Source: an uncultured delta proteobacterium
Lineage (GTDB): Bacteria; Myxococcota_A; Polyangia; Palsa-1104
DNA length: 64,000 nucleotides
NCBI GenBank assembly: GCA_963785725.1
Contig: CAWAWS010000009.1
Span: 1-64,000 of the forward strand
Direction: 5' to 3'
Shown here: one piece after another, positions 1,233-16,400 of the stretch
Layout: every line of letters begins with the position of its first letter
Numbering within the stretch: position 1 is the first letter of the stretch
Program-made: the position numbers and the translations under genes
Notes under the pieces: model-generated
The model's input: only the letters and a program-made list of their open reading frames with translations
What the model was told of the DNA's origin: nothing
Database searches by the model: none

Positions 1233-2234
1233 TTACGCGGCGGGGACTTGGCCGCGCTCGCGGAACCACGCGTAGGCTTCCGAGAACGCGTCCATCACCG
1301 ACGTCGGCACAAAGCCGAGCTCGGTGCGCGCCTTGGTGATGTCGGCGTGCTTGCCGCCGTTCAAGATCTTGATCGTGCCCGGCGTAAAGCGCGGCGGCTT
1401 GTCAGGTGCGAACGCGCGCATGAACACGCCCGAGACGTGCGCCAACGGCAACATGACGGCCACGGGAATGCGCAGGCGCGGCTTCTTGACGCCGCACAAC
1501 GCCGACAGATGATCGAGGATTTGATCGAGCGTGAATTGCCCGCCCGACAAGATGTAACGCTGCCCGGGGCGCCCGCGCTCCATCGCCAACAGGTGCCCGG
1601 CGACGACATCGCGCACGGCCACGAACTCGAACTGGCCGGGCACGTAAGCGGGCATGCGGCGATTGGCGAAGTCCAAGATCGTCTGCCCCACCGACGACGG
1701 CTTGTAATCGTGCGCGCCGACGATGCCGCAGGGGTTGACGATGGTGACGTCCTGGCCGCGATGCACGGCGCGATGCACCTCGAGCTCGGCCATCGCCTTC
1801 GACAGCTCGTAATCGAGGTGCGTCTCGAACGGATTGACCGTGAACGTCTCGTCGCTGGGGCCGCCCGACGGATTGTGGCCGACGGCGCCGAACGAGCTGC
1901 AGAACACGGTCTTCGTCACGCCCGCTCTGTCGGCGGCGGCCAAGACGTGGCGCGTGCCGGTGACGTTGGCGTCGAACACCTCCTGCTGCGCGCCGCGCCG
2001 GAGCGAGACGAACGCGGCCACGTGATAGACGCGGTCGCAGCCGGCGACGGCGCGATCGATCGACGCCGCGTCGCGCAAGTCGCCTTCGACGCGCTCGACC
2101 TCGAGGCCGTCGAGCGCGTGGTTGTTCGAGCGCGGGCGCACGAGCGCCTTGACCGCCTCGCCGCGCGCCAACAATGCGCGCACGAGGTTGGCGCCGACGT
2201 GGCCCGATCCACCGGTCACAAAAGTCTTGGGCAT
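1233..2234 (-). CDS. Extended SDR / NAD-dependent epimerase-dehydratase (3beta-HSD/HpnA-like; SdmB-like paralog 2)
   Basis: MPKTFVTGGSGHVGANL Rossmann motif and YELSK catalytic YxxxK. Strongly similar along its length to 12736..13824. ATG at 2234. Confidence 0.85.
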   Translation of the reverse strand: MPKTFVTGGSGHVGANLVRALLARGEAVKALVRPRSNNHALDGLEVERVEGDLRDAASIDRAVAGCDRVYHVAAFVSLRRGAQQEVFDANVTGTRHVLAAADRAGVTKTVFCSSFGAVGHNPSGGPSDETFTVNPFETHLDYELSKAMAELEVHRAVHRGQDVTIVNPCGIVGAHDYKPSSVGQTILDFANRRMPAYVPGQFEFVAVRDVVAGHLLAMERGRPGQRYILSGGQFTLDQILDHLSALCGVKKPRLRIPVAVMLPLAHVSGVFMRAFAPDKPPRFTPGTIKILNGGKHADITKARTELGFVPTSVMDAFSEAYAWFRERGQVPAA

Positions 2235-2251
2235 ATCAGATTTGGCGAGGC

Positions 2252-3460
2252 TCAGTTGGCGTGCGCGAGCGAATCGTCGGACGACGGAACCGGCACGGTC
2301 GGCGCCGGCCGCTTGGCCGAGCCCTCCGATTCCTTCAGGTGCGAGCCGGCCAGCGCCGAGCCGATGGCCCAGGTCGCCACGCGGCGAATGAACGGCGAGT
2401 TGTAGGCCATGGCCACGCCGTCGAGCAGCGGCGTCTTGAGCACGCCGCGCACGGCGTGACCGACGAGGAAGCCGGCCGTGAAGCGGCGCCGGCACTGCCA
2501 CTGATAACGCGACCACGCGCGCGCTTCGTCGGCGCCCGTGAGCACGTCGGCCAGCGCGTCGGCGGCGTAGAGCCCGGACTGCATCGCCTGGAAGATGCCT
2601 TCGCCGGTGGCGTTGTGCGTGATGCGCGCCGACTCGCCGAGATGCAGCATGCCGGGCGCCGTCAGATCGCGGATCCACGTCGTGTACGAGATCGGATGGC
2701 CCTTGAGCTTGCCGATCTGCCGCGCGTCGCGCAGCCGCTCCGCGAAGTGGTCGTCGAGGAAGCGGGCGAAGACGTCGCGCACGTTGCGCTCGGTCTTGCG
2801 GCCGTCGGGTCCTTCGCCGTCCATGCAGATGCCGATGTTGCAGCGGGTCTCGGTCTCGGGAAACATCCAGCCGTAGAGCGGCGACAAGTTCTTGTCGAAG
2901 ATCATCTCGAGCGTGCCGGGCAGAAACGGCATGCCTTCCCACCAGCCCATGAGCGTCGAGATCGTCCGTTTGGGCCGCCGGTCGGTCGAGAACATGGCGT
3001 GCGCGCCGTCGGCGGCCAGGACGTAATCGGCGCGGATGTCGCCCTCTTTGCTGCGCACGCCGACGACGCGGCCGTTCTCGCGAATCAGCTCTTGGACCTT
3101 GCAGCCGCCGCGGAACTCGACGCCCAGCGACTGCGCGCGCTCGACGAGCAAGTTGTCGAAGTGCTTGCGCAAGAGGATGACCGACGTGCCCGCTTCGGTC
3201 GTCATGTAGAGCTGGCGCTGGCCCGGCGTGATGACGCGCAAGGAGCCGATGGCGTAGCCGCGGCGCCGCACTTCGTCGCCGATGCCGAGCTCGTCGGTGA
3301 TCTTGAGGCCGTTGGGCGACAGTGCGCTGCCGCACGTCTTCTCGCGCGGGAAGCGATCTTTGTCGACGAGAACGACGTTGCGAATCCCGCGTTGCGCCAG
3401 CCGAACCGCCGCCGCCGCGCCACCCGGGCCCGCGCCGATGATCACCGCACTGTTTCGCAT
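2252..3460 (-). CDS. FAD-dependent oxidoreductase, geranylgeranyl reductase family
   Basis: IIGAGPGG, FPREKTCGSAL, LAADGAH, YGWMFP and GESARITHNATGEGIFQAMQSG motifs. Co-oriented with the SDR, 17 bp apart. Confidence 0.85.
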   Translation of the reverse strand: MRNSAVIIGAGPGGAAAAVRLAQRGIRNVVLVDKDRFPREKTCGSALSPNGLKITDELGIGDEVRRRGYAIGSLRVITPGQRQLYMTTEAGTSVILLRKHFDNLLVERAQSLGVEFRGGCKVQELIRENGRVVGVRSKEGDIRADYVLAADGAHAMFSTDRRPKRTISTLMGWWEGMPFLPGTLEMIFDKNLSPLYGWMFPETETRCNIGICMDGEGPDGRKTERNVRDVFARFLDDHFAERLRDARQIGKLKGHPISYTTWIRDLTAPGMLHLGESARITHNATGEGIFQAMQSGLYAADALADVLTGADEARAWSRYQWQCRRRFTAGFLVGHAVRGVLKTPLLDGVAMAYNSPFIRRVATWAIGSALAGSHLKESEGSAKRPAPTVPVPSSDDSLAHAN

Positions 3461-3573
3461 GGGCTTGTGCGTAACGCGAGACGCACGACCGGTCAAGCCG
3501 CGGCGTGCCGGATATTTCGCGGAGAATTAACCGAGTGGTGAGCTGACTGTATTCGTGGTGAGCTGACTGCCGA

Positions 3574-4990
<1,417 letters not shown>

Positions 4991-5138
4991 AGCGCCGCAA
5001 CATAATCGATGCGGACGCTGTGTCAACGTGCTGGCGCCTACTTAGCGCGATAATTCGCTCGCCGAGCGAGCAGGCGCTCCGTCGCTGTCACAGTCGCCGG
5101 ACGTGCGCTCAGCCACGGGGCCTGATAGAATTAACGCG

Positions 5139-6041
5139 ATGCCGCAAATGCTGTATGCGTCGCGCGAAGAGCGGTTCCCTTACGCCGAGCGCTCCTTTCT
5201 GTACGGCGACACGCCCATCATGTACTTCGACGAGGGCTCCGGCCCCGCCATTGTATTGACCCACGGGCTGGGCGCAAATCTGACGCATTTCGGGCATATG
5301 GCGGCGCCGCTCATCGCCGCCGGCTACCGCGTGTGCGGGCTCGACATGCCCGGCTTCGGCCTGTCCGGCAAGCCGCACCGCGTCTACACCATTCGCTGGC
5401 TCGCCGGCGCCATCGCCGCGCTGCTCGATCACTTGGGCATCGACAAGGCGACGCTGGCCGGCCACTCGCTCGGCGGTCTCGTGTCGGCCGACTTGGCGCT
5501 GGCCGAGCCCGATCGCGTCGAGCGGCTCATCCTCATCAGCTCCGCCGGTTTGTTCACGATGCCCCTTCCTTTTCAGTGGGTCGCGCGCACAATCATGAGG
5601 CCGGGGCTGGTCGCGGCGGCGCTGGAGCGCAACGCAGAGCGGCTGCTCACGAGCCGAGTGTTCGAGGAGCGGAACGAAAAGGTCGATCGGTTCATCGAAA
5701 TCTGTACCACTCGACCCGATACGCGCTTCGTCAAGGACTTGGCCCGCGTGATGTGGTCGATGCGCAAGGATCTGACGAGCTATCACCTGTTCGATCAGGT
5801 GGCGCGGCTGACGATGCCGACGCTGGTCATCTACGGCGCGAACGATAAATTGCTCCCGACCAAGGCGGTTCCGGCGTGGGCTGGGATGCTGCCCAACGGC
5901 GAGCTGGAGGTCATCGAGCGGTGCGGGCACATGCCGATCATCGAGAAGCCGGAGCAGGTCGTCTGGCGCATGAAAGAGTTCCTGCGGCGTACCGCGGCCA
6001 CGCGACAACGGGCGGCGGCGAAGGCGGCAGCGGCGAGATAA
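5139..6041 (+). CDS. Alpha/beta fold hydrolase
   Basis: HGLG oxyanion motif, DMPGFGLS, GHSLGG nucleophile elbow, GANDKLLP Asp and CGHMP His. Confidence 0.9.
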   Translation: MPQMLYASREERFPYAERSFLYGDTPIMYFDEGSGPAIVLTHGLGANLTHFGHMAAPLIAAGYRVCGLDMPGFGLSGKPHRVYTIRWLAGAIAALLDHLGIDKATLAGHSLGGLVSADLALAEPDRVERLILISSAGLFTMPLPFQWVARTIMRPGLVAAALERNAERLLTSRVFEERNEKVDRFIEICTTRPDTRFVKDLARVMWSMRKDLTSYHLFDQVARLTMPTLVIYGANDKLLPTKAVPAWAGMLPNGELEVIERCGHMPIIEKPEQVVWRMKEFLRRTAATRQRAAAKAAAAR

Positions 6042-6067
6042 TCGGCGTCCCGCAATGGGACGGCTCG

Positions 6068-6850
6068 ATGGTGCAGAAGGTCAACGCCTGGGTCCGACCG
6101 CTTCGTTCGATCTACTTCCGCTCCGAAATCGACGGCCTGCGCAACTTGCCCGACGAGCCGTCGATGGTCGTCGGCAACCATGACGGCGGCTACGTCTTTC
6201 CCGACGCCATCTGCATGGGCTCGTTCTATTACGACGCCTTCGGCATCGGCGGGCGACGGCTGTATGCGCTCATGCACGACTTCCCCTTTCGCATCGCGCC
6301 GACCTTGACCGAGTGGCTGCAGCGCTGCGGCGTCTTGCCGGCGTCACGCTTGAACGGCGATCGCGTGCTCGCGGCCGGGCATCATCTGCTCGTCTATCCG
6401 GGCGGCTCCTTCGAGGCGTTCCGCACCTACGCCGATCGGCGCACGATCAGCCTCGGCAACCGCATCGGCTTCGTGCGCCAGGCGCTGAAGCATCGCGTGC
6501 CGATCACGCCGCTGGTGTCGGTGGGCGCGCACGAGACGCTGTTCGTCATCGCGCGCGGCAATAATCTGGCGCGCTGGTTCGGGCTGCACAAGTTCGCGCG
6601 CGTCGACGTGGCGCCGCTGTGGGTCGGGCTGCCGTTCGGGATCGGCTGGGGTCCGCTGCCGAACATCCCGCTGCCGTCGAAGATCAAGCTGGAGATGCTG
6701 CCGCCGATTCGGCTGTGGAAGGAGCTCGGCGAAGCGGCCGACAGCGACGACCATGCGGTCTTGCGCGCCGGGCTCGACATCGTGCGCTCGCGGATGCAGC
6801 GCGTGAGCGACCGGCTCTACAGCGAGCGGAGATTCCCGATCATCGGCTGA
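6068..6850 (+). CDS. PlsC/DGAT-like (lysophospholipid) acyltransferase
   Basis: VVGNHDGGYVFPD, LVYPGGSFEAFR and GFVRQALKHRVPITP motifs. Start is approximate; follows the hydrolase directly. Confidence 0.8.
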   Translation: MVQKVNAWVRPLRSIYFRSEIDGLRNLPDEPSMVVGNHDGGYVFPDAICMGSFYYDAFGIGGRRLYALMHDFPFRIAPTLTEWLQRCGVLPASRLNGDRVLAAGHHLLVYPGGSFEAFRTYADRRTISLGNRIGFVRQALKHRVPITPLVSVGAHETLFVIARGNNLARWFGLHKFARVDVAPLWVGLPFGIGWGPLPNIPLPSKIKLEMLPPIRLWKELGEAADSDDHAVLRAGLDIVRSRMQRVSDRLYSERRFPIIG

Positions 6851-6861
6851 GGCGCGGGCGA

Positions 6862-7344
6862 TTACGGCGCGAGCAGGCCGCGTAGGCGCGGGACCATTTC
6901 GTCGACGGCGCCATCGCCCTTGACCGAGCCTTCGATCAGCCGACCCGAGAAGTTTCCGTCGGGCTTGGGCAGCGCGAACATGGGAATGAAGCGGGAGACA
7001 TAGCCGGCGACGGCCAGCCGCTCGTTGTCGCGGTCGGCGTCGAACTCGAGCAGCCGCAGCGTCGACAGCTCGGCGTCCAAGCGCCCGGCCGCCGCCGCCT
7101 CGTGAAAGCGCCGGCAGGGCTCGCACCAGGTCGCGCCTTCGTACACGAGGACGCGCTTGCCCTCGCGCTTGGCCTTGTCCATTTCGCGCAGCACGAGCGC
7201 GGCCACGTCGCCTTCGGGCGCCGCCACGAACTCGACGTGCGCCCGCTTGGCCGCCGCTTTCGTCGCCGCCGGTGACGTCGGATTACAGCTCGCCGCCGCG
7301 GCGCCCAGCGTCAACGCCAGCGTCACCGCTTGCTTCCATCGCAT
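6862..7344 (-). CDS. Thioredoxin-like lipoprotein
   Basis: Signal peptide ending AAASC, and a ATWCEPC CxxC motif. Confidence 0.75.
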   Translation of the reverse strand: MRWKQAVTLALTLGAAAASCNPTSPAATKAAAKRAHVEFVAAPEGDVAALVLREMDKAKREGKRVLVYEGATWCEPCRRFHEAAAAGRLDAELSTLRLLEFDADRDNERLAVAGYVSRFIPMFALPKPDGNFSGRLIEGSVKGDGAVDEMVPRLRGLLAP

Positions 7345-7398
7345 CGCTCGACTCTAGCATGCGATCCGCGACCTCGGCGCTTGCGCTATCATGGGCTC

Positions 7399-8163
7399 GT
7401 GCAGCTCCTATCGGCCAACCCGTCGAAGCGCTGGACCGAGCAGCTCGTGCTCGCCTATAGCCCGATTTGGATCGCGGCCATCGGCGCCTGCCAAGTGACG
7501 CATATCTTCGCGCGCTGGGGCGATCTCGGGCATCTGGCGTTCGGCATCTCACTGGCGCTGCCGCTGTGGCTGGTGCCGCTGGTCTGGCCGCCGCCGGCGG
7601 ATCTGAAGCTGCCGCTGCGCGACCGCCACGCCGTGCGCTTCGGCGTCTTCATCGCGACCTGGACGGCGCTGCAAGTCTACTTCGGGAGCGACCTCTTCTT
7701 CGACGTGCTCGGCATGCAGTACCACTTCAACGTCCACTGGCTCTTGCATCGCACGCCGGTCTTCCTCTATTTCGTCACGATCGCCTATTTCAGTACGTAT
7801 TACGTCGTCATGCAGATCGCCTGGCGCGCCTTTCGGACGCGCTGGCCAGAGGCGCCGGCGTGGCTGCGCCTCGGCGTGCTGTGCGCGATCGGCTACGCGG
7901 TCGCGTTCGCCGAGACGGCGGGCATGGCGACCGAGCAGATGCGCGACTATTTCTCCTACCGCGACAAGCGTTTCACGCTGCTGTTCGGGTCGTTGTCTTA
8001 CGGCAGCATCTTCGCGGTGACGTTGCCGCTCGTCTATCGGCTCGACGAGGAGGCGCAGCCCGACGGCCGGCACACGCTCGGCTCGCTGGTGTGGGATGCG
8101 TGTGCCGCGAACACGGTAGTGCTGGTTTTGTACGCACTATTCGCCGCCCTGGCCGTGCGTTGA
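7399..8163 (+). CDS. Cycloeucalenol cycloisomerase (cyclopropylsterol isomerase, CPI1)-like membrane protein
   Basis: Multi-TM protein collinear with plant CPI1 as I recall it: ANPSKRWTE (plant PNPSKRWGE), ADLKLPLRDR, YFGSDLFFDVLGMQYHF (plant YFWTHYFFKVLGASYTF), VAFAET, YFSYRDK, FAVTLPLVYRLDE (plant FIVSFPMFFRMDE), WDACAA. GTG start at 7399. Confidence 0.75.
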   Translation: MQLLSANPSKRWTEQLVLAYSPIWIAAIGACQVTHIFARWGDLGHLAFGISLALPLWLVPLVWPPPADLKLPLRDRHAVRFGVFIATWTALQVYFGSDLFFDVLGMQYHFNVHWLLHRTPVFLYFVTIAYFSTYYVVMQIAWRAFRTRWPEAPAWLRLGVLCAIGYAVAFAETAGMATEQMRDYFSYRDKRFTLLFGSLSYGSIFAVTLPLVYRLDEEAQPDGRHTLGSLVWDACAANTVVLVLYALFAALAVR

Positions 8164-8189
8164 CCTGAACGCGCGCTAAAACAGCAACC

Positions 8190-9584
8190 ATGCCGCGCGG
8201 ACTCGTAGGCCGTCTCATCGTCAGCTTCGTCCTCGCCGTCGTCTGCTTCTGCGGCTCCACCCTCTATTCCAGCTGGATTTCGCGCACGCTCGACGACGAG
8301 GCGCTCGCCATCGCCGCCAGCGCCGTGCCCGCCATCGAGCACTTGTCGATGGTGCGCGCCGAGCTGCGCCGGCTCGACACGACGGTCTTGCGCTACGAAG
8401 CGCACGCCGGCAACGCCGAGCGGGCCGAGGTGCTGGAGGCGCGCACGCAGCTCGACGACGCGTTCGAGCGCTATTTGTCGCTGCCGGTGCGGTTCGGCGA
8501 CGAGCAGGCGCTGTGGGCCGAGCTGCATCACCGGCTGGCCGAGGTCGACCGCCGCGTCGCGGCCAAGCTCGAAGACGTCGACAACGGCACCAACCGCTAC
8601 GACGACAAGATCAAAGTCGCGACCGACGCCGCGGCCGAGCCGATCCGCCGCATCATCGAGCTCAATGCGCAAAAGGCCCGCGATCTGGCGCTGCGCATGG
8701 AAGAGGGGCGGCGACGCAACGTGCGCGTGGCGCTGCTGCTCGACCTGTTGAGCACGCTGTTCACGCTGACGGCGGCCTGGCTGACGGTGCGCGCGCTGGC
8801 CAGCCATCATCGCGTCGTCGACGAGCGTAACCGCTTGGTGGCGCGCCGGGCCGAGGAGCTGGAGCAGTTCGCCGGCCGCGTCGCTCACGACGTGCTCGGC
8901 CCGCTGTCGTCGACGCGCCTGGCGGTCGGGCTGGCGACGTCGCGGGTGGAAGATCCGGCGGTGCAGCGCGCGCTCGAGCGCGGCCAGCGCGGCATCACGC
9001 GCGTGGCCACGATCGTCGACGGCCTGTTGCGCTTCGCGCGCGCCGGCGCGCACCCCGACCCGGGCGCGGTCACGGTGGTGGCCGGCGTCGTCGAAGGCGT
9101 CGTCGTCGACATGGAGACGGTGGCCGAGGCGGCCGGCGTCACGCTGCGCGCCGCGGCGGTGCCCGATTGCGCCGTCGCCGGCAACGCGGGCGTGCTCGTC
9201 AGCGTCGTCGAGAATTTGGTGCGCAACGCCATCAAGTACATGGGCGAGCGGCCGGTGCGCACGGTGGACCTGCGCGTCCTTCTGCGCGGCGCGATGGTGC
9301 GGCTCGAGGTGCAAGACAGCGGGCCCGGGATCGCGCCGGCGCTGCTCGACACCGTGTTCGATCCGCACGTGCGTGGCCGAACGCAAGGTCAGCCCGGCAT
9401 CGGGCTCGGCCTGGCGACGGTCAAGCGCATCGTCGAGTGCCACGGCGGCAAAGTGGGCGTGCAGTCGAAGCTGGAAGAGGGCAGCCTGTTCTGGTGCGAG
9501 CTGCCGCGCGCCGAGAGCGTCGAGAGCACGCCCGCCGAGGCGCCGGCCGCGCCTGCGCCGCTGCAGAATCGTCGCGAAGAGTAG
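8190..9584 (+). CDS. Membrane sensor histidine kinase (orphan)
   Basis: Two TM segments with a four-helix periplasmic domain. H-box FAGRVAHDVLGPL, N-box NLVRNAIKY, G-boxes DSGPGI and GLGLATVKRIVECHGG. Confidence 0.9.
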   Translation: MPRGLVGRLIVSFVLAVVCFCGSTLYSSWISRTLDDEALAIAASAVPAIEHLSMVRAELRRLDTTVLRYEAHAGNAERAEVLEARTQLDDAFERYLSLPVRFGDEQALWAELHHRLAEVDRRVAAKLEDVDNGTNRYDDKIKVATDAAAEPIRRIIELNAQKARDLALRMEEGRRRNVRVALLLDLLSTLFTLTAAWLTVRALASHHRVVDERNRLVARRAEELEQFAGRVAHDVLGPLSSTRLAVGLATSRVEDPAVQRALERGQRGITRVATIVDGLLRFARAGAHPDPGAVTVVAGVVEGVVVDMETVAEAAGVTLRAAAVPDCAVAGNAGVLVSVVENLVRNAIKYMGERPVRTVDLRVLLRGAMVRLEVQDSGPGIAPALLDTVFDPHVRGRTQGQPGIGLGLATVKRIVECHGGKVGVQSKLEEGSLFWCELPRAESVESTPAEAPAAPAPLQNRREE

Positions 9585-9587
9585 CGG

Positions 9588-11609
9588 TTACGCCGACTGC
9601 GTGAGCCGCGCGTAACGCGCCAAGGCCCACGCCGGGAAATAATCCTTGTAGAGCCGATAGTCGAGCATCGCCGTCGAGAAGAAGACGCCCGACTGCGACT
9701 GCTGCGGCCATTGTCCGTCGGCGAGCTGCCGCGACTGCAGCCACGCGATGGCGCGCGTGATCGCCGGATGCGTCGGCGGCAGTGTCTCCAAGAGCGCCAA
9801 CGCGGCCCACGCCGTCATCGCCGCTTGGCTCTCGGGATGCTCGACATATTCGTCGCGCACGCAGCTGGAGAAGTGCTCGCCCCAGCCGCCGTCGGGCTTC
9901 TGCTTGCCGACGAGCCAGTCGATGGCGCGGGCGATGGCCGGATCGCTCGCCGGCACGCCGGCCGCGCTCAGCGCCTCGACGACGTGGAAGATGGCGTAGG
10001 TGAAGTTGACGCCCCAAAAGCCGAGGTAGCTGCCGTCGGCGAGCTGGCGCGAGCGCAGGAGCGTGACGCCGCGGGCGATGGCGTCGTCGACTTCGCGGCG
10101 CATGAGCGCGGGAAAGACGCGGCGGAAGCGGGCCAGCGCGCCCACGCACGACGCCGTGCACTCGGTGTACGAGCGCTCGGTCATGCAGTTGCCGTACATC
10201 TCGGATGGGTTGATCCACTCGAGGATTTGCGAGCCGCGCCGCGCTTCGTAGCTGCCGAAGCCGCCGTCGACGTTCTGGCGCCGCATGATGAAGCGCGCCG
10301 CCTGCGCCAGCCGCTCGTCGCTGATGCGGCGCACGCCGGCGGGCAAGAGCGCCAAGACCTCATGGCTCGCGTGCAGCTCCATGAGCGACGTCATGGCTTC
10401 GGCGGTGCAATCGGAGACGGCCCAGCGATGCTCGCCGTCGGAGAAGCACCAGCCGCCGACGATGGGCTCGCGGCGCTCGCGCTTGCCGCCGATGAGCTCC
10501 TCTTGCATCTGCGCGTCGCGCAGCCAGTTGTAGGCGCGCGTCAGCGTCGTGGTCGCCGTGTCGCTCGCGCGCTGCGCCGCCGGCGCCTCCAAGATCGCGC
10601 GCATGCCGAAGGCCGTATCCCACGACGTCGAATGCGCGCCGCAGTAGCGAATGCCCTCGGCCTCGTCTTCCCACTTCCACGACTGCATCGCCGCCAGCGA
10701 CGACTCGAACGCGGCGTGCTTCTCGGCGAACAGCGCCAAACAGTTCAACAGGCCGTTGACCGGCGACAGGCCTTGGCCGCGCGTCGCCGTCTGCTCGTAC
10801 AAGATGCGCTCGAAACAGTGGCTGAGCGCGCGCTTGCGCAGCGGCGAGAGCGCGAATTTCTCGTAGCGATAGAGCACGTCGTAAGCCGCGCGCAAGGGAC
10901 GGCTCGGGCGCACGTGCAGGTCGCCGGCGGCGATGTCGTGACGATGGGCCGCGAAGTCGATCTCGTGATACGGCTGCGCATATAGCTCGCGGCGCAAATC
11001 GTCGCCAAGCGCGCCCAAGTCGTGACGAAAACGGCGGCCGTACAAATAACCGATACCCAAATAGATATAACGGGTATGGCAATAGAAGTTATTGGGATGA
11101 ACCGGAAGCCAGTCGGGCAGTAAGAATAACTCGGGCGGAACCGGGTTCATGCCCTCGTATTCGTAGAGCCCGACCATCGCCAGCCAGAACTTGCCCCACG
11201 ACGGCACGGACAGGACGCCGCCCGGCTGCGCGTGCAGCCACTGCCGGGCGCGACGACAGCGCGGATCGTCGGCGGCGACGCCGAGCAGGCGCAAGGCGAC
11301 GTAGGCGAGCGAGGTCATGAAGACGAAGGGGCCGCCTTCGCCGTGCATGGCCCAGCCGCCTTCGGGCGTCTGCGTCGTCTCGTACTGATGGAGAATGCGC
11401 GCTCGCGTGCGCGCGTCGATCGCCGGCAATTTGCCGACGATGTGCTGCACGATCACCCACTGCGAGAGCAGCATCGAGTTCCACACCATCTCCGCTTCCC
11501 AGGCTCCATTCGGGAGCTGGACGGCGGCGAGGTGGTCGATGGCCCGCGTCAGCGAATCGGCTTCGTCAGGCGCGCTGTCTATTTCGGCTTCCGCGCGCTC
11601 GAAAATCAC
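9588..11609 (-). CDS. osc: 2,3-oxidosqualene cyclase (sterol/triterpene synthase)
   Basis: Catalytic VSDCTAEA (OSC type, not the DxDD of squalene-hopene cyclase), PSWGKFWL, FYCHTRYIY, INPSEMYGNCMTERSYTECT, WGVNFTY, and QW repeats (QKPDGGWGE, QLADGQW). The GTG start overlaps the Rieske stop (GTGA, 11606-11609). Confidence 0.95.
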   Translation of the reverse strand: MIFERAEAEIDSAPDEADSLTRAIDHLAAVQLPNGAWEAEMVWNSMLLSQWVIVQHIVGKLPAIDARTRARILHQYETTQTPEGGWAMHGEGGPFVFMTSLAYVALRLLGVAADDPRCRRARQWLHAQPGGVLSVPSWGKFWLAMVGLYEYEGMNPVPPELFLLPDWLPVHPNNFYCHTRYIYLGIGYLYGRRFRHDLGALGDDLRRELYAQPYHEIDFAAHRHDIAAGDLHVRPSRPLRAAYDVLYRYEKFALSPLRKRALSHCFERILYEQTATRGQGLSPVNGLLNCLALFAEKHAAFESSLAAMQSWKWEDEAEGIRYCGAHSTSWDTAFGMRAILEAPAAQRASDTATTTLTRAYNWLRDAQMQEELIGGKRERREPIVGGWCFSDGEHRWAVSDCTAEAMTSLMELHASHEVLALLPAGVRRISDERLAQAARFIMRRQNVDGGFGSYEARRGSQILEWINPSEMYGNCMTERSYTECTASCVGALARFRRVFPALMRREVDDAIARGVTLLRSRQLADGSYLGFWGVNFTYAIFHVVEALSAAGVPASDPAIARAIDWLVGKQKPDGGWGEHFSSCVRDEYVEHPESQAAMTAWAALALLETLPPTHPAITRAIAWLQSRQLADGQWPQQSQSGVFFSTAMLDYRLYKDYFPAWALARYARLTQSA

Positions 11610-12715
11610 GCATCGGCCTTGGCGAGATGCTCTTCCCACTTACGAATCGTCAGCGCCTGGAACTCGTGCACCGCCGGATTGAGCTCGGCGATGGGCTTCT
11701 CGTAGTGACGATTGTAGCCCTCTTGCTCGAGGCGAACCGCGAGGCCGTCCTCGTCGAGCAGCGGCTTGACCTGGAAGATCTTGGCCAGCGGCATCACCAC
11801 TTTGCGCAACAGCCAGCCGGGCAGACGAATCGCGCCGAGGCCGGGAATCTTCACCAGCTCGTGCGCGAAATAGAACAGGAAGATGGCGCGCGTCGTGGTC
11901 TCGTCGATCGGCACCACGAAGCACCAATGCTTGATGAGACCGCCGGTGTTCGAGCGCTGATACGGATATTCGTAAGCCAATTTGATATGGCTGGTATCGG
12001 CATTCTCGCGATTGACGAAATAGGACGTGATGCCGCCGCCACCGACGAGCGTGTCGTATTCGAGGCTGACCATGTCGCCGGTCGATTCCAGCTTGGTCAG
12101 CTTGGCGTCCCAAAAGGGTTTGTACTTGCGGTGCAAATAGGCGTGCGTGAAATCGCTGACGTTGTCCATGACCATCGAGTGATGGCCTTTGACGATCATG
12201 TCGATGGGAATGAGCCCCCACGGATCGCGCCCTTGCAGCTCGGGAATCTCCGGGATCTTGCGCTCGTTGGCCAACGCCGCGTCGCCCGGGAAGATCCAGA
12301 TGAGGCCGTGCTTCACCTGCACCGGGAACTGCTTGACCTTGAACTCCGGCATCTTCTTGTCGAAGAGCTCGTGCGGAATCTTCACGCACTTGCCGCTGCC
12401 GTCATATTGCCAGCCGTGATACGGGCACACGAGCTGGCAGCCCTCGACGTGGCCTTCGGTGAGCTTGAGCTGACGATGGGCGCAGCGGTTCTCGATGGCG
12501 TTCATGGCGCCGTCTTGCCCGCGGAAGATGGCGATCGACTGCTTCCACCAGACGACTTCTTTGACTTCGCCGCGCTTGACGTTCTTGTCCCACTCGACCG
12601 CGTACCAATAGTCGGGGTTCATGCCAGCGGCGCGCGCCTTCTGACGACGATTGGTGGCTTCGTCGAACGACGGCGGACCGCTCCGCAACGTCACCAGCTT
12701 CACGGGCTCTTTCAT
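11606..12715 (-). CDS. Rieske non-heme iron oxygenase, putative sterol C-4 methyl oxidase (SdmA-like)
   Basis: Rieske ligands NRCAHR...CPYHGW and mononuclear Fe motif DNVSDFTHAYLH. Coupled to osc. GGGAG RBS upstream of ATG 12715. Confidence 0.8.
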   Translation of the reverse strand: MKEPVKLVTLRSGPPSFDEATNRRQKARAAGMNPDYWYAVEWDKNVKRGEVKEVVWWKQSIAIFRGQDGAMNAIENRCAHRQLKLTEGHVEGCQLVCPYHGWQYDGSGKCVKIPHELFDKKMPEFKVKQFPVQVKHGLIWIFPGDAALANERKIPEIPELQGRDPWGLIPIDMIVKGHHSMVMDNVSDFTHAYLHRKYKPFWDAKLTKLESTGDMVSLEYDTLVGGGGITSYFVNRENADTSHIKLAYEYPYQRSNTGGLIKHWCFVVPIDETTTRAIFLFYFAHELVKIPGLGAIRLPGWLLRKVVMPLAKIFQVKPLLDEDGLAVRLEQEGYNRHYEKPIAELNPAVHEFQALTIRKWEEHLAKADA

Positions 12716-12735
12716 GGTCGCTCCCAAAGTATTTC

Positions 12736-13824
12736 TCAGCCGGCGGCGCGCTTGTCGGACGCGGGCTTGCCGTCCGTCGCCGTCGTCGACTGCATGACGT
12801 CCGCGCGCGGATTGTGGATGTCGCCGCGATTCGCAAAGAACTGATAGGCCTCGCGCACGGCGTCTTCAATAGGCGTCGGGCGGAAGCCGAGCTCGCGCTG
12901 GGCCTTACCGGTGTCGGCGTGGCGATTGAGCCGCAAGACGCGAATGGCGCCCGGCGTCAGCCGCTGCGGGCGCGAGGGAAACAGCGTCGACTGCACGAAC
13001 TGCGAGATCGGCGCCACCATCGCGAGCAGGCCCGCCGGCAAGCGACGCGGCCGCTTCTTGCCCGTGACGCGCTCGAAGATGTCCATGAGCGTGTCCATCG
13101 AGTGGAAGCCGCTCGAGATGATGTATTTGTGGCCGGTGCGGCCTTTTTCCATCGCCAACACGTGGCCGTTGGCGATGTCGCGCGCAGCCACGAACTCGAA
13201 GCCGCCCGGGATGTACGCGCGCAATTTGCCGTTGGCGAAGTCGCGCAAGACCGCGCCCATGCGCGACGGCATGAAGTCGTTGGGCCCCAAGATCGCGCAC
13301 GACGTGGCGATGACGACGTCTTGCCCTTCGGCGACGGCGCGCAGGCACTCGAGCTCGACCGCCTGCTTCGACTTCTCGTAGGGCATGACGTGGTCGAACG
13401 GATTGAAGGGCTCGGTCTCGTCGCTGGGGCGACCGTCGGTGCGATGGCCGACGGCGCTGAAGCTGCCGGTGACGACGACGCGGCCGACGCCGGCTTCGCG
13501 CGCGGCCGCGAGTAAATTCTTGGTGCCGACGACGTTGTTCTCGAACAGCGCCTGCTCTTGCCCGTCGACGGTCGAGATCTGCGCGGCGCAGTGGAAGATG
13601 CGATCGATGCCTTTGACGGCGGCGCGCAAGGACTCGGGCTCGCGCAGATCGCCGTAGACGACTTCGACGTCAATGCCGGCGAAGGCGGCCTGGTTGGCTT
13701 GCGCTTCCTCGCGCCGCGCCAGCGCGCGAATCGAGACTCCGCTTCCCGCCTTAGCGTCAGCCAATAGGCGGCGAATCAAGTTCGCGCCCAGGTGGCCGGC
13801 ACCGCCCGTGACCAGGACCTTCAT
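12736..13824 (-). CDS. Extended SDR / NAD-dependent 3beta-HSD-decarboxylase-like protein (SdmB-like)
   Basis: MKVLVTGGAGHLGANL and YEKSK (YxxxK). First gene of the SDR-Rieske-OSC operon. Confidence 0.8.
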   Translation of the reverse strand: MKVLVTGGAGHLGANLIRRLLADAKAGSGVSIRALARREEAQANQAAFAGIDVEVVYGDLREPESLRAAVKGIDRIFHCAAQISTVDGQEQALFENNVVGTKNLLAAAREAGVGRVVVTGSFSAVGHRTDGRPSDETEPFNPFDHVMPYEKSKQAVELECLRAVAEGQDVVIATSCAILGPNDFMPSRMGAVLRDFANGKLRAYIPGGFEFVAARDIANGHVLAMEKGRTGHKYIISSGFHSMDTLMDIFERVTGKKRPRRLPAGLLAMVAPISQFVQSTLFPSRPQRLTPGAIRVLRLNRHADTGKAQRELGFRPTPIEDAVREAYQFFANRGDIHNPRADVMQSTTATDGKPASDKRAAG

Positions 13825-13994
13825 GCGCTCATTTGATTATCGCCGAAAGTGGCGGTTGTCCAGCGAAAGCTAGGTGCGAAATCGCACGAAACCTGCGCAA
13901 CACAAGGGTTTTCCGCGCTTGAAACCGCACGAGTGTTGACTGTGCACGCGCTTTTATGGCCAATTGCGCCAAACCATCAAAGTCAGGGTGACGA
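13825..13994. promoter_or_regulatory. Divergent promoter region between the SDR-Rieske-OSC operon and the sterol methyltransferase
   Basis: 170 bp, lower-GC intergenic segment between divergent starts. TTGACT (-35-like) at 13936-13941; the -10 match is weak. Confidence 0.45.
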
Positions 13995-15023
13995 ATGACG
14001 GAGAAGCCGCAGCTGACCGACCTCGTGCAGACCTCGCTGGCCAACGACGCGGTCAAGAACGTCGTCGACGAGTATCACTCGTTCCACGCCGGCACCGTCG
14101 AGACGCGCAAGGCGAACTACACGCAGATGGTGAACGACTATTACGATCTCGTGACCGACTTCTACGAGTTCGGTTGGGGGCAGTCGTTTCACTTCGCGCC
14201 GCGCCATAAAGGCGAGTCTTTCGATGCGTCCTTGGCGCGTCACGAGTTCAACCTCGCGCTGCGCCTCGGCCTCAAGCCCGGCATGAAAGTGCTCGACGTC
14301 GGCTGCGGCATCGGCGGGCCGATGCGCGCCATCGCGCGCTTCTCGGGCGCGACCATCGTCGGCGTCAACAACAACGACTATCAGATCAAGCGCGGCACCA
14401 AGCAGAACCAAGACGCCGGGCTCGCCAATCGCTGCTCGTTCATGAAGGCCGACTTCATGAAGCTGCCCGTGCCCGACAAGAGCTACGACGGCGTCTACGC
14501 CATCGAAGCGACCTGCCACGCGCCCGACAAGGTCAAGCTGTTCACCGAGCTCTTCCGCGTCATGAAAGACGGCGCCGAGTTTGCCGGTTACGAATGGTGC
14601 CTGACGAAGAAGTACGACGCCGGCAACCCCGAGCACCGCGCGATCAAGAAGGGCATCGAGGAGGGCGACGCGCTGCCGGACATTTGGTACGAGAAGGACG
14701 TCGTCGACGCGCTCAAGCAGTCGGGCTTCGAGGTCATCAACGCGCTGGACATGGCGCCGCAGTCCGACCACGAGACGCCGTGGTACTTGCCGCTCTCGGG
14801 CAAAATGTCGCTGCAGGGCTTCAAGCACACCGAGCTCGGCCGCATCGCCACCAACGCGTTCGTGCGCGTCCTCGAAGCGGCGAAGGTCGCGCCCAAAGGC
14901 TCGACGGCGGTGTCGTCGTTCTTGAACGCGGGCGCCAAGGCGCTCGTGCGCGGCGGCGAGACCGGCATCTTCACGCCCATGTTCTTCTTCCACGTCCGCA
15001 AGCCCGCCTCGTCCAAAGCGTAA
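13995..15023 (+). CDS. smt: Sterol C-24 methyltransferase (ERG6/SMT1 family)
   Basis: All SMT signature regions are present: YYDLVTDFYEFGWGQSFHFAP, VLDVGCGIGGPMRAIARFSG, NNNDYQIKRG, YAIEATCHAP, YEWCLT, IEEGDALP, PWYLPL, GGETGIFTPMFFF. Confidence 0.93.
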   Translation: MTEKPQLTDLVQTSLANDAVKNVVDEYHSFHAGTVETRKANYTQMVNDYYDLVTDFYEFGWGQSFHFAPRHKGESFDASLARHEFNLALRLGLKPGMKVLDVGCGIGGPMRAIARFSGATIVGVNNNDYQIKRGTKQNQDAGLANRCSFMKADFMKLPVPDKSYDGVYAIEATCHAPDKVKLFTELFRVMKDGAEFAGYEWCLTKKYDAGNPEHRAIKKGIEEGDALPDIWYEKDVVDALKQSGFEVINALDMAPQSDHETPWYLPLSGKMSLQGFKHTELGRIATNAFVRVLEAAKVAPKGSTAVSSFLNAGAKALVRGGETGIFTPMFFFHVRKPASSKA

Positions 15024-15034
15024 GGAGTCGCTCC

Positions 15035-15109
15035 GACATACTGTGCGCGGGCTCAGACAGTCCTCGGCTTACAGCCTGCGGGAGACAACTCGCCCGCGCA
15101 CAGTATGTC
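15035..15109. repeat. Perfect 18-bp inverted repeat (stem-loop) downstream of smt
   Basis: GACATACTGTGCGCGGGC (15035-15052) pairs with GCCCGCGCACAGTATGTC (15092-15109). The 39-nt loop contains a GGCT-TAC-AGCC hairpin. A T-rich tract follows at about 15120. Confidence 0.8.
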
Positions 15110-15329
15110 TCCGCTCCGCTTTCTCGTTTTAGTCTCGTTGGAACCCTTCAGAAATTGGCCCGCATGACCGACACGCTCGGTCGTCAAGGCCGCTCGTCGC
15201 GCAAGCCCCGAAACGCGACGTCTTGTGCCTATTTTTGCGCTGCTGATCTGGTGGAGTGACGTCGGCGCTGCGATAAAGCGGCGCCCATAAACCAACCACT
15301 ATTCGGCCCGATCAACCGATGGTCGCCGC

Positions 15330-16400
15330 TCAGTATACGAACGGAATCATGCGAAACCGCGCGCGCTGACAATACTCGCGCCACAGCTCGCCATACTTCG
15401 CCGCGCACCGCTGCTCGTCGCGCCACGCGCGATGCGTGAACAAACAAACGAGCCAGAACGGCAGCAAATAGGGGACGACCGAATCGAACCCCGTGCAAAT
15501 GGTCCACGAGAAATAGACCATCAGCTCGCCGGTGTAATTGAGCTTGCGGCCGATTCCCCAAAACCCCGACACCAATAGTCGGCCGCCGACCGTCTCCGGC
15601 GTCTTCCCCCAAATCGGCGCTTTGGGGTTTTCCTTGTACTGATGCTTCTGCTCGTTCGACCCGCGAAACAGCCAGAATCCGCAGGCGAACAGCAGCGCCA
15701 GCGCCGCCACTTCATAAGCCGGCATGGGCGCCGTATTGCGCAGCATGTACCAGCCGCAAATGCAGTAGAAGAACGGGACGACCACGTAATCGCCCCACAC
15801 CAGCATGAAGCCGAAGTTCTCGGCGATCACGTCCCAGGTATGCAGCATCCCGTATTCGAATTGAAAGTAATTGAAGATGTAAATGGTGAAGAACGTCTCG
15901 TATAGCGCCATGCGCGTCGTCAAATGGCCGAGCTCTTGATACTGCATGGCCGCGAATGAAAGATTGAGCACCCATAAGCCCATCAACGACGGCATATAAG
16001 CGAACATCTTCAGATCGACGCCCCATAAATCGGGGTTGAGCTCGGGGCCGAACCAGAAATCGTGGAGCACGCCTTTGTCGCTGTGCTTGCGACCGACGGC
16101 GTAGAGCCAGCCGGTATGCACGAACGCGAACACGTTGCCGACGACGAGCAGCGGCCAGAACAGCTCGTTGACGCGCGCCAGATTGCCGATCTTCGTAAAC
16201 TGCACGACGGCGAGCCCGACGGCGAGCACGATGAGCAAGAGAAAGCCGTTGAGCTTGTAAGTCTTGCGCGTGCCGTCGCGCAGCTGCTGCCCTTGCTTGA
16301 GCGGCCCCGGCAAGAACTTGCGCAGGACGAAGAGCACCGCCACGAAACCAATATAAATGGCCGTCGCCGATAAGAGGTTTTGCACTGTGATGGATTGCAT
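15330..16400 (-). CDS. ERG4/ERG24-family sterol reductase, most like Delta14 (C-14) reductase (plant FACKEL type)
   Basis: TYKLNG, DFWFGPELNP, WDVIAENFGFMLVWGD, FRGSNEQKHQYKENPKAPIWGK...GGRLLVSGFWGIGRKLNYTGE and HRAWRDEQRCAAKYGELWREYC...MIPFVY. Compact, 356 aa. Confidence 0.88.
   Translation of the reverse strand: MQSITVQNLLSATAIYIGFVAVLFVLRKFLPGPLKQGQQLRDGTRKTYKLNGFLLLIVLAVGLAVVQFTKIGNLARVNELFWPLLVVGNVFAFVHTGWLYAVGRKHSDKGVLHDFWFGPELNPDLWGVDLKMFAYMPSLMGLWVLNLSFAAMQYQELGHLTTRMALYETFFTIYIFNYFQFEYGMLHTWDVIAENFGFMLVWGDYVVVPFFYCICGWYMLRNTAPMPAYEVAALALLFACGFWLFRGSNEQKHQYKENPKAPIWGKTPETVGGRLLVSGFWGIGRKLNYTGELMVYFSWTICTGFDSVVPYLLPFWLVCLFTHRAWRDEQRCAAKYGELWREYCQRARFRMIPFVY

What the first reader, a model, noticed from the sequence alone, without database searches (positions are those of the whole stretch)
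1233..16400. Bacterial gene neighbourhood for a plant-style, C-24-alkylated sterol pathway (OSC, SMT, SdmAB-like pair, CPI1-like, C-14 reductase)
Seen in sequence: within 15 kb are an oxidosqualene cyclase, an ERG6/SMT1-type methyltransferase, a Rieske+SDR pair coupled to the cyclase, a CPI1-like protein, a FACKEL-like reductase, a second SDR paralog and a GGR-type reductase. They are intronless, interleaved with bacterial genes (glyQS, a histidine kinase) and next to Agl/Glt gliding genes. Established: in plants the route is cycloartenol, then SMT1, C-4 demethylation to cycloeucalenol, CPI1, CYP51 and C-14 reductase. Myxobacteria make sterols, but C-24 alkylation is considered largely eukaryotic, with few bacterial SMTs reported. 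Inference: this organism may make C28/C29 phytosterol-like sterols through a hybrid pathway with eukaryote-like SMT/CPI/C-14 reductase and a bacterial C-4 demethylase. That would bear on sterane biomarker interpretation and on the origin of the eukaryotic pathway.
Basis: partly seen in the sequence, partly recalled or inferred. Interest (0 to 1): 0.95.

Follow-up and report, generated by a model that had tools for sequence, protein, structure and literature searches.

The report
Myxobacterial lanosterol-route methyl-sterol gene cluster
An uncultured bacterium whose nearest database relatives are myxobacteria carries an intact, conserved cluster of sterol genes that likely makes side-chain-methylated sterols from lanosterol, not by the plant cycloartenol route; bacterial clusters of this kind were already reported in 2021-2023, so it is a further example.

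Summary
The genes are real, intact and syntenic in relatives. The rest of the genome supplies squalene (HpnD/HpnE), squalene epoxidase and a CYP51-ferredoxin fusion. The 'plant-style' reading fails. The genome's only cyclase has A381/H449/V453/F697 and falls in the V453 (lanosterol-type) clade, not the Y381/I453 cycloartenol clade. The CPI1-like gene does not mark cycloartenol chemistry: among 401 sampled phylum genomes it occurs with 17 of 33 V453 cyclases and 0 of 11 I453 cyclases. This copy also lacks a C-terminal acidic residue kept in 72 of 89 homologs. The SMT keeps all family motifs, so C28 sterols are likely; C29 is untested. The GGR is probably the bacterial C-24 reductase (Bsr), which would compete with the SMT. 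The genome has one ERG4/ERG24-family gene, so Delta-5 phytosterols are not predicted. Brown 2023 assayed bacterial SMTs from such clusters. Hoshino & Gaucher 2021 listed OSC+SMT+CPI1+ERG24 in a MAG whose proteins are 56-72% identical to these. This scan found similar clusters before on other DNA. New member of a known kind. The open question is what the CPI1-like protein does beside a lanosterol-type cyclase.

The parts
1233..2234 (-). SDR of the SdmB/SdmC type (C-4 decarboxylase/3-keto reductase, inferred); the closer of the two paralogs to the methanotroph SdmB model
   Evidence: NF052578 427.5 bits, cut-off 600; GxxGxxG and YxxxK motifs; 46% identical to the other SDR
2252..3460 (-). Geranylgeranyl-reductase-family flavoprotein, likely the bacterial sterol C-24 reductase (Bsr)
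   Evidence: TIGR02032 over cut-off; matches at E<=1e-45 in 25 of 59 genomes picked as family members or cyclase carriers and 0 of 21 genomes without a cyclase motif
3574..4990 (-). Dimeric glycyl-tRNA ligase, housekeeping; frameshift at about 3950, likely a sequencing error
   Evidence: NF003211 over cut-off; contigs of runs X1 and X3 lack one base at 3950
5139..6041 (+). Alpha/beta hydrolase, syntenic with the cluster; possible sterol-ester hydrolase (inference)
   Evidence: PF00561; in tandem with the acyltransferase in loci of 7 relatives
6068..6850 (+). DGAT/PlsC-like acyltransferase (start approximate); possible sterol acyltransferase (inference)
   Evidence: PF03982, PF01553; same synteny; the pair also lies near the CPI1-like gene in L067 at 42-45% identity
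6862..7344 (-). Thioredoxin-like protein; kept in the genus only; no sterol role shown
   Evidence: PF13899 E 1e-5
7399..8163 (+). CPI1 (cyclopropylsterol isomerase)-family protein, mostly helical; keeps two conserved Glu, lacks the conserved C-terminal Asp/Glu
   Evidence: model pLDDT 94
8190..9584 (+). Sensor histidine kinase between the CPI1-like gene and the OSC; kept in the genus and in G004
   Evidence: PF02518, PF00512
9588..11609 (-). 2,3-oxidosqualene cyclase, bacterial Group I type (A381/H449/V453/F697, human numbering), predicted lanosterol synthase
11606..12715 (-). Rieske oxygenase SdmA (C-4 methyl oxidase, inferred); stop codon overlaps the OSC start
   Evidence: NF052579 406.6 bits; Rieske motif; overlap
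12736..13824 (-). SDR of the SdmB type, first gene of the SDR-SdmA-OSC run
   Evidence: NF052578 288.9 bits; motifs
13995..15023 (+). Sterol C-24 methyltransferase (ERG6/SMT family), divergent from the SDR-SdmA-OSC run
   Evidence: PF08498; motif conservation against 120 homologs
15330..16400 (-). ERG4/ERG24-family reductase, likely Delta-14 sterol reductase; the only member of the family found in the genome
   Evidence: PF01222; best solved match 4quv Delta(14)-sterol reductase, E 7e-67

Best explanation
This is a vertically conserved sterol gene cluster of an uncultured Polyangia-type myxobacterium that likely makes sterols from lanosterol and likely methylates part of them at C-24. Inferred route: HpnCDE (C18) makes squalene; the epoxidase (C15) makes oxidosqualene; the V453 cyclase makes mainly lanosterol; the SMT adds a C-24 methylene; CYP51-ferredoxin (C6) and the ERG24-like reductase remove C-14; SdmA with the two SDRs removes one or both C-4 methyls; an EBP-like protein (C39) may shift Delta-8 to Delta-7. 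Predicted end products are fecosterol/episterol-type C28 sterols. The Bsr-like reductase would compete with the SMT for the Delta-24 bond and give a C27 series alongside. The CPI1-like protein is an inherited companion of lanosterol-type pathways, and its copy here is probably not a working plant-type isomerase. Shown: genes, motifs, synteny, co-occurrence. Inferred: every activity and product.
For: One OSC in the genome. Aligned to human lanosterol synthase it has DCTAE, H232, Y503 and C533 equivalents, and A381/H449/V453/F697. In a 65-row tree the V453 rows (53) and I453 rows (12) lie on opposite sides of a branch with support 100; the window's enzyme is 35-41% identical to I453 enzymes and 41-76% to V453 enzymes. 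V453 tracked lanosterol in all bacteria tested (PMC4919349), and Group I is mostly lanosterol-producing (PMC8237579). CPI1-like genes: 17 of 33 V453 genomes, 0 of 11 I453 genomes, and 25 of 42 in genomes with neither motif; 15 of 16 genomes found by the CPI scan have a V453 cyclase as best match. SMT motifs are intact. 8 of 10 symbiont and 12 of 14 environmental bacterial SMTs were active in vitro (PMC10070321). OSC in 11, SMT in 7, CPI1-like in 9, CYP51 in 11 and epoxidase in 13 of 14 family genomes; all five in 4 of 4 same-genus genomes. HpnD and HpnE pass their cut-offs. A GGR-family enzyme is the C-24 reductase of Sandaracinus (10.1101/2024.11.01.621555), and E. salina needs a second SDR for full C-4 demethylation (PMC10202945).
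Against: No activity or lipid was measured. In Arabidopsis CAS, I481V with H477 kept still makes some cycloartenol (10.64898/2026.05.26.727834), and this cyclase has that H/V pair. Table 3 of PMC4919349 marks cycloartenol as well as lanosterol for E. salina and P. pacifica, although its text says lanosterol rather than cycloartenol. The CPI1-like gene is kept intact beside the cyclase in 6 of the relatives whose loci were read, which argues that it does something. The epoxidase and CYP51 are frameshifted in this assembly. The epoxidase shift is absent from contigs of two runs; the CYP51 shift was not checked against reads. The Bsr call rests on family and co-occurrence, not on a comparison with the tested enzyme. 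Neither SDR nor the Rieske protein reaches the NCBIfam cut-off of 600. SdmA was not found in G006, G007 and G013, so C-4 demethylation is dispensable in kin. 4 of 24 tested bacterial SMTs were inactive.
Confidence: 0.62

Rival explanations
1. Leaky cyclase plus salvage: the H449/V453 cyclase makes lanosterol with a cycloartenol (or parkeol) by-product, and the CPI1-like protein returns that by-product to the Delta-8 route. C-24 methylation proceeds as in the best explanation.
For: The H/V pair gives mixed products in the plant enzyme. PMC4919349 Table 3 lists cycloartenol plus lanosterol for two species that have CPI1, and lanosterol alone for Sandaracinus, which has none. The CPI1-like gene goes with V453 cyclases and is adjacent to the cyclase in several relatives. 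Two Glu are kept in 88 of 89 and 89 of 89 homologs.
Against: The window's clade (11 rows, SH-aLRT 97) has Ala where 72 of 89 homologs have Asp/Glu. I recall, without the paper, that the matching Asp260 and Gly108 are essential in Arabidopsis CPI1; Gly108 is also replaced here. Bacterial V453 enzymes also have A381 and F697, so plant mutants are an imperfect guide. 16 of 33 V453 genomes lack the gene.
Confidence: 0.18
2. One reading: the cyclase makes cycloartenol, followed by SMT, C-4 demethylation, CPI1 ring opening, CYP51 and C-14 reduction to phytosterol-like C28/C29 sterols.
For: CPI1-like, SMT, SdmAB-like and ERG24-like genes lie within 10 kb of the cyclase; H449 is retained; CYP51 is present.
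Against: V453/A381/F697 and clade placement; no second cyclase; 0 of 11 I453 genomes have CPI1 or SMT; cultured V453 species with CPI1 make lanosterol and zymosterol; no second ERG4/ERG24-family gene for Delta-7 reduction.
Confidence: 0.07
3. The CPI1-like protein and the SMT remodel sterols taken up from prey or plant litter, not the cell's own cyclase product.
For: 25 of 42 CPI1-like genomes in the sample had neither cyclase motif. The published CPI1 tree includes Steroidobacter, Gordonia and Mycolicibacterium (that these degrade sterols is my recall). A Chlamydiae SMT works without other sterol genes.
Against: Both genes are embedded in a conserved de novo cluster, and the SMT is divergent from the SDR-SdmA-OSC run in the genus.
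Confidence: 0.08
4. The SMT is inactive on sterols or is outcompeted by the Bsr-like reductase, so only C27-series sterols accumulate.
For: Bsr-bearing myxobacteria show no C-24-unsaturated sterols; 4 of 24 bacterial SMTs were inactive; SMT was not found in 7 of 14 family genomes.
Against: The SMT is 79-85% identical across the genus, more than the cyclase, and its motifs are intact.
Confidence: 0.05

Closest known systems
SMT-containing bacterial sterol clusters of Brown et al. 2023 (PMC10070321), especially the marine Sandaracinus MAG
   Same: OSC, SMT, SdmA, SdmB linked; CYP51 and ERG24 in the cluster or genome; mostly Group 1 cyclases
   Different: Here the lineage is found in soil runs, epoxidase and CYP51 are unlinked, there is one SMT, and a GGR and a CPI1-like gene are in the cluster. 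No CPI term was found in that paper's readable supplements (one file unreadable).
Myxococcales MAG Baikal-deep-G131 in Hoshino & Gaucher 2021 (PMC8237579, SI Table S3 and trees)
   Same: OSC, CYP51, ERG24, CPI1 and SMT in one myxobacterial genome. Its CPI1, OSC and SMT are 56%, 60% and 72% identical to the window's, and its cyclase has the same A381/H449/V453. It also has SdmA and the GGR beside the OSC.
   Different: In that MAG, CPI1 and SMT are on other contigs than the OSC and an ERG2 is present; here they are clustered and no ERG2 was found (where no control rang).
[quoted passage not shown]
   Same: Lanosterol-type cyclase, SdmAB, GGR-family reductase in the sterol cluster
   Different: The preprint's main text has no mention of an SMT; those species finish to cholesterol, whereas only one ERG4/ERG24-family gene was found here.
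E. salina SdmA/SdmB/SdmC (PMC10202945)
   Same: One Rieske oxygenase with two paralogous SDRs (46% identical here, 51% there)
   Different: SdmC was described as restricted to Nannocystaceae; orthology to SdmC was not tested.
Plant cycloartenol route (CAS1, SMT1, CPI1, CYP51, FACKEL)
   Same: Homologs of SMT, CPI1, CYP51 and C-14 reductase are present
   Different: The cyclase lacks Y381 and I453; C-4 demethylation is SdmA-type; the CPI1-like protein lacks residues kept in eukaryote-like copies; no Delta-7 reductase candidate.

Membership tests
2,3-oxidosqualene cyclase | DCTAE initiation motif, full two-domain length, best match to OSC rather than SHC | tested here: met
   VSDCTAE; TIGR03463 835 bits (cut-off 851) against TIGR01507 278; human LSS E 3e-129 against SHC 5e-51
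Cycloartenol synthase | Y381/H449/I453 (human numbering; PMC4919349) | tested here: not met
   A381/H449/V453; all 12 I453 enzymes have Y381 and N697 and form the other side of the tree
Bacterial Group I (lanosterol-type) OSC | V453 and placement with Group I enzymes | tested here: met
   V453 clade, support 100; sister clade holds the enzyme of G021, which the published tree lists among Methylococcus, Enhygromyxa and Gemmata enzymes
Bacterial Group I (lanosterol-type) OSC | Lanosterol as product | not testable with these tools
   needs expression and GC-MS
Sterol C-24 methyltransferase (ERG6/SMT) | SAM domain plus Sterol_MT_C domain and the conserved SMT motifs (motif roles recalled) | tested here: met
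   PF08498 86.9 bits over cut-off 21.7; YEFGWGQSFHF, LDVGCGIGGP, YAIEATCHAP, IEEGDAL and IFTPM present, core positions shared with 114-120 of 120 homologs
Sterol C-24 methyltransferase (ERG6/SMT) | Methyl transfer to a Delta-24 sterol; number of rounds | not testable with these tools
   PMC10070321 gives no residues that predict the number of rounds in the parts read
CPI1 cyclopropylsterol isomerase | Full-length homology to eukaryotic CPI1 | tested here: met
   33% over 251 aa to eukaryote-like P0092; Atlas 0.92 to a plant cluster; 56% to a protein of the MAG in the published CPI1 set
CPI1 cyclopropylsterol isomerase | Residues essential in Arabidopsis CPI1 (Glu29, Gly108, Asp260; recalled, paper not held) | tested here: not met
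   By alignment through P0092 (E26, G105, W109, D258): Glu kept; Gly replaced by Gln, Trp by Gly, Asp by Ala. The mapping is indirect because no Arabidopsis sequence was on hand.
CPI1 cyclopropylsterol isomerase | Works downstream of a cycloartenol synthase | tested here: not met
   Single V453 cyclase; 0 of 11 I453 genomes carry it in the phylum sample; one exception outside that sample, G016
SdmA/SdmB C-4 demethylase | Rieske oxygenase and extended SDR best matching the SdmA/SdmB models, linked to an OSC | tested here: met
   Top NCBIfam hits at E 8e-122, 5e-128 and 7e-86; coupled to the OSC
SdmA/SdmB C-4 demethylase | NCBIfam equivalog cut-off (600 bits) | tested here: not met
   406.6, 427.5 and 288.9 bits; relatives G005 and G021 also fall short
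Bsr bacterial sterol C-24 reductase | GGR-family protein confined to sterol producers and often in the cluster | tested here: met
   25 of 59 against 0 of 21 at E<=1e-45; within 5 kb of the cyclase in G384, G409, G084, G021 and G033
Bsr bacterial sterol C-24 reductase | Clade membership with the tested S. amylolyticus enzyme | not tested
   no named reference sequence was obtained
Delta-14 sterol reductase (ERG24/FACKEL) | ERG4/ERG24 family, and C-14 rather than C-7 or C-24(28) specificity | tested here: inconclusive
   Family met; best solved match is a Delta-14 reductase, but both solved matches are Delta-14 enzymes and no tree against DHCR7/ERG4 was built

The most novel reading that the evidence does not exclude
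Bacterial CPI1-family proteins are editing enzymes of lanosterol-type pathways. They rescue cyclopropyl or mis-deprotonated by-products of a leaky H449/V453 cyclase, and in this genus, after loss of the C-terminal acid, may act on a different isomer. CPI1 would then predate the plant cycloartenol route. A widespread soil myxobacterial family would also tune C27 against C28 sterols through competing Bsr and SMT enzymes.
Probability: 0.18. Interest if true: 0.65.

Novelty: new member of a known kind. Interest (0 to 1): 0.3.

Why it matters
It adds a free-living lineage, found in soil runs, to the bacteria with the genes for C-24-alkyl sterols. Brown 2023 had pointed to marine myxobacteria and noted that no isolate had confirmed the activity. 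In this family the trait looks stable (SMT in 8 of 15 genomes, against 22 of 401 across the phylum), so it is a sensible target for isolation and lipid analysis, and a minor caveat for C28 steranes. It also corrects a tempting shortcut: a bacterial CPI1 homolog is not evidence of a cycloartenol route. That bears on the use of CPI1 to argue for a plant-like ancestral pathway. The testable open points are the function of CPI1-like proteins beside V453 cyclases, the SMT/Bsr competition, and a possible sterol-esterifying pair.

Tried and rejected
Mis-assembly of the cluster: rejected, because gene order is conserved in relatives and run contigs bridge SDR-GGR, GGR-glyS, Trx-CPI, CPI-HK, HK-OSC, SdmA-SDR and SDR-SMT (no piece spans the whole stretch). 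Second cyclase or SHC in the genome: not found, one tblastn hit at E<=1e-8. ERG2: no match, but no control rang. C-5 desaturase: five PF04116 genes, none assignable. DHCR24 and the 8,14-reductase of PMC13277303 were not searched. Fold search of the CPI1-like model: no Foldseek match at E<=0.001; best wide match was an Insig homolog at Z 6.9, rmsd 3.7, 138 aligned, below the level that is meaningful for helical bundles, so not used. Expression: no RNA holder listed. The profile search of 50%-cluster representatives could not be run, so a deeper eukaryotic CPI1 sample is lacking. Accession look-up for the CPI homologs could not be made. The plant CPI1 mutagenesis paper is not held and a term search did not find those residues, so they remain recalled. 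A search for Myxococcota + sterol + methyltransferase + C-24 + metagenome-assembled from 2023 gave 0 papers; searches listed no assay of a bacterial CPI1 homolog, but the library lacks most subscription journals. A Fisher test on 17/33 against 0/11 gave p=0.003; kin are not independent, so it is descriptive only. The CPI tree is the quick tree, not the finished careful one, and five duplicate rows were dropped. From the OSC tree two duplicates, one fragment, one repeated row and three loci without a DCTAE frame were dropped. bioRxiv supplements (the Bsr homolog table) were not seen and may already list members of this family.

Full report
Setting. The window is the first 64 kb of contig C9 of an 8.9 Mb, 47-contig genome, 88% complete and 1.5% contaminated. 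Named homologs of its cyclase and CPI1-like protein come mostly from Polyangia/Myxococcales MAGs, so I treat it as an uncultured myxobacterium. Near-identical DNA lies in soil metagenomes. The cluster's genes have GC3 0.81-0.93, like a neighbouring gene at 0.90.

Observation. The SDR at 12736-13824, the Rieske gene and the cyclase form a minus-strand run; the Rieske stop overlaps the cyclase start. The SMT is divergent from this run across 170 bp. The ERG24-like gene follows a HEAT-repeat gene and ExbB/ExbD/ExbD. Among 14 other genomes of the family, OSC was found in 11, SMT in 7, CPI1-like in 9, CYP51 in 11 and squalene epoxidase in 13; all five were in 4 of 4 same-genus genomes. Gene order is largely kept, and run contigs bridge seven gene junctions. 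The cluster is therefore not an assembly artefact.

Rest of the pathway. The genome has HpnD and HpnE over their cut-offs, with a third PF00494 gene beside them, and a split SQS-like gene. It also has a squalene epoxidase (C15:411763-413131), a CYP51-ferredoxin fusion (C6:82781-84551; best solved match CYP51, E 1e-88), two EBP-family genes and five unassigned PF04116 genes. Only one ERG4/ERG24-family gene was found, although G005, G013 and G002 have more. The epoxidase and CYP51 are each split by a frameshift. In a test of 24 gene stretches, 3 were split: these two and the essential glycyl-tRNA ligase. Contigs of runs X1 and X3 lack the extra base in the ligase and in the epoxidase, and most relatives have long open frames for both sterol genes. 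I read these as sequencing errors; the CYP51 site was not checked against reads.

The cyclase is lanosterol-type. It is the only cyclase found. Against human lanosterol synthase it keeps DCTAE and the H232, Y503 and C533 equivalents, and has A381, H449, V453 and F697. Wei et al. 2016 (PMC4919349; passages and section 11 read) found V453 to track lanosterol and I453 cycloartenol in all bacteria tested. I scanned 401 phylum genomes for both motifs: 33 had V and 11 had I, with no control hits. All 41 loci returned held a cyclase; three V hits had no locus and are unverified. All 12 I453 enzymes have Y381 and N697; all V453 enzymes with the site in view have A381. The two sets are the two sides of one branch with support 100, and the window's enzyme lies in the V453 set, in a family clade sister to one holding the enzyme of G021. 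Hoshino & Gaucher 2021 (PMC8237579; passages, parts 1-2 of 6, SI passages and SI parts 3, 27, 28, 31 read) describe Group I as mostly lanosterol-producing. One caution: in Arabidopsis CAS the I481V change alone leaves some cycloartenol (10.64898/2026.05.26.727834, passages), so a by-product is possible.

The CPI1-like gene does not restore the plant route. It is a true family member. In the same 401 genomes, 42 had a homolog: 17 of the 33 V453 genomes, 0 of the 11 I453 genomes, and 25 with neither motif (cross-count mine). Of 16 further genomes found through the CPI scan, 15 have a V453 cyclase as best match and one, G016, an I453 cyclase. SI Table S3 of PMC8237579 lists CPI1 in Plesiocystis, Nannocystis, Enhygromyxa, Minicystis and Polyangium, and none in Stigmatella or Cystobacter. 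In an 89-row alignment, two Glu are kept in 88 and 89 rows; a C-terminal Asp/Glu is kept in 72 rows but is Ala in the window and its 11-row clade. Through P0092 this site maps near Asp260 of Arabidopsis CPI1, which I recall as essential; the paper is not held and the mapping is indirect. Against my reading: the gene is intact and kept beside the cyclase in 6 relatives, and Table 3 of PMC4919349 marks cycloartenol for E. salina and P. pacifica, both CPI1-positive, but not for CPI1-negative Sandaracinus, although the text says otherwise. That leaves a salvage role open.

SMT and GGR. The SMT has the C-terminal sterol-MT domain and intact motifs. It occurs in 22 of 401 phylum genomes: 15 with a V453 cyclase, none with I453, and 10 with both V453 and CPI1. 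Brown et al. 2023 (PMC10070321; parts 1-3 of 7 and Supplementary Data 1 read) found 20 of 24 bacterial SMTs active, so activity is likely; one versus two methylations cannot be read from sequence. The GGR matched at E<=1e-45 in 8 of 14 family genomes, 9 of 32 V453 genomes, 7 of 11 I453 genomes and G021, not in G016, and in 0 of 21 genomes without a cyclase motif (two weak hits at 31-32%). This fits Bsr, the C-24 reductase of Sandaracinus (10.1101/2024.11.01.621555; parts 1-3 of 6 and passages read). SMT and the Bsr-like gene occur together in G000, G005-G008, G013 and G021, whereas 0 of 12 genomes of family f4, most of which carry an SMT, matched the GGR. The two enzymes would compete for the same double bond.

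C-4 demethylation. The Rieske protein and both SDRs best match SdmA/SdmB models, below cut-off. Two SDRs recall SdmB/SdmC of E. salina (PMC10202945, passages); orthology was not tested. SdmA was not found in G006, G007 and G013 (92, 93 and 100% complete), where the SDR directly abuts the cyclase, while controls G005 and G021 rang. Those relatives would keep their C-4 methyls.

Most likely working. Squalene, oxidosqualene, lanosterol; C-24 methylenation in competition with C-24 reduction; C-14 demethylation and reduction; C-4 demethylation; perhaps Delta-8 to Delta-7 isomerisation. The predicted products are fecosterol/episterol-type C28 sterols with a C27 series. This resembles the early fungal route more than the plant one. 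All activities are inferred.

Comparison and verdict. SMT+OSC+SdmAB+ERG24+CYP51 clusters are in Brown 2023. OSC+SMT+CPI1+ERG24+CYP51 in one myxobacterial MAG is in Hoshino & Gaucher 2021, and that MAG's CPI1, OSC and SMT are 56, 60 and 72% identical to the window's. I also read parts 1-2 of PMC13277303 and passages of PMC8172173; neither changed the reading. Earlier scan notes report similar myxobacterial clusters on other DNA. The finding is a new member of a known kind, with its headline interpretation corrected. Interest 0.3; the remaining value is the unexplained CPI1-like protein, the SMT/Bsr pairing and a soil lineage worth isolating.

Noticed in passing
G016: L053 (ERG24 4-522, CPI1-like 648-1373, P450, SMT 7197-8186) and L084: This genome has a cycloartenol-type cyclase (Y381/H449/I453) next to a squalene epoxidase, plus a cluster of ERG24-like, CPI1-like, P450 and SMT genes, and a second SMT. 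It is a better candidate for a plant-style route than the window. The cyclase is on a separate short contig, and its CPI1-like protein aligns without the otherwise conserved N-terminal Glu.
   Followed up: partly
window 5139-6850; L067 2562-4364: An alpha/beta hydrolase and a DGAT-like acyltransferase travel with the sterol cluster in loci of 7 relatives and in another family; a candidate sterol esterification/hydrolysis pair.
   Followed up: partly
L030 (G006), L040 (G007), L033 (G013): SdmA is cleanly missing between the SDR and the cyclase while SMT and CYP51 remain; these relatives would make 4,4-dimethyl, C-24-methylated sterols.
   Followed up: partly
window 1-1170: The contig start joins a minus-strand GspE/PilB ATPase fragment (about 25-510) to the C-terminal part of a plus-strand WD40 gene; it looks like a chimeric contig end, outside the sterol cluster.
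   Followed up: no
G000:C39:384448-387655 (L009): An EBP-family gene lies near a gene that looks like a steroid 5-alpha-reductase (my reading of the sequence) and a third SdmB/HpnA-like SDR; possibly a second sterol-modifying locus.
   Followed up: partly
G000:C6:82781-84551 (L021): CYP51 is fused to a C-terminal ferredoxin, as in Methylococcus, and is unlinked to the cluster.
   Followed up: partly
L034 (G002), L072, L074-L078, L080: Several V453 cyclases have Asn in place of the Cys before the H232 equivalent (FYNH), in more than one branch.
   Followed up: no
window 42500-64000: A long minus-strand run of large repeat-rich ORFs in several overlapping frames, probably gliding-motility genes broken by assembly frameshifts; not annotated here.
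   Followed up: no
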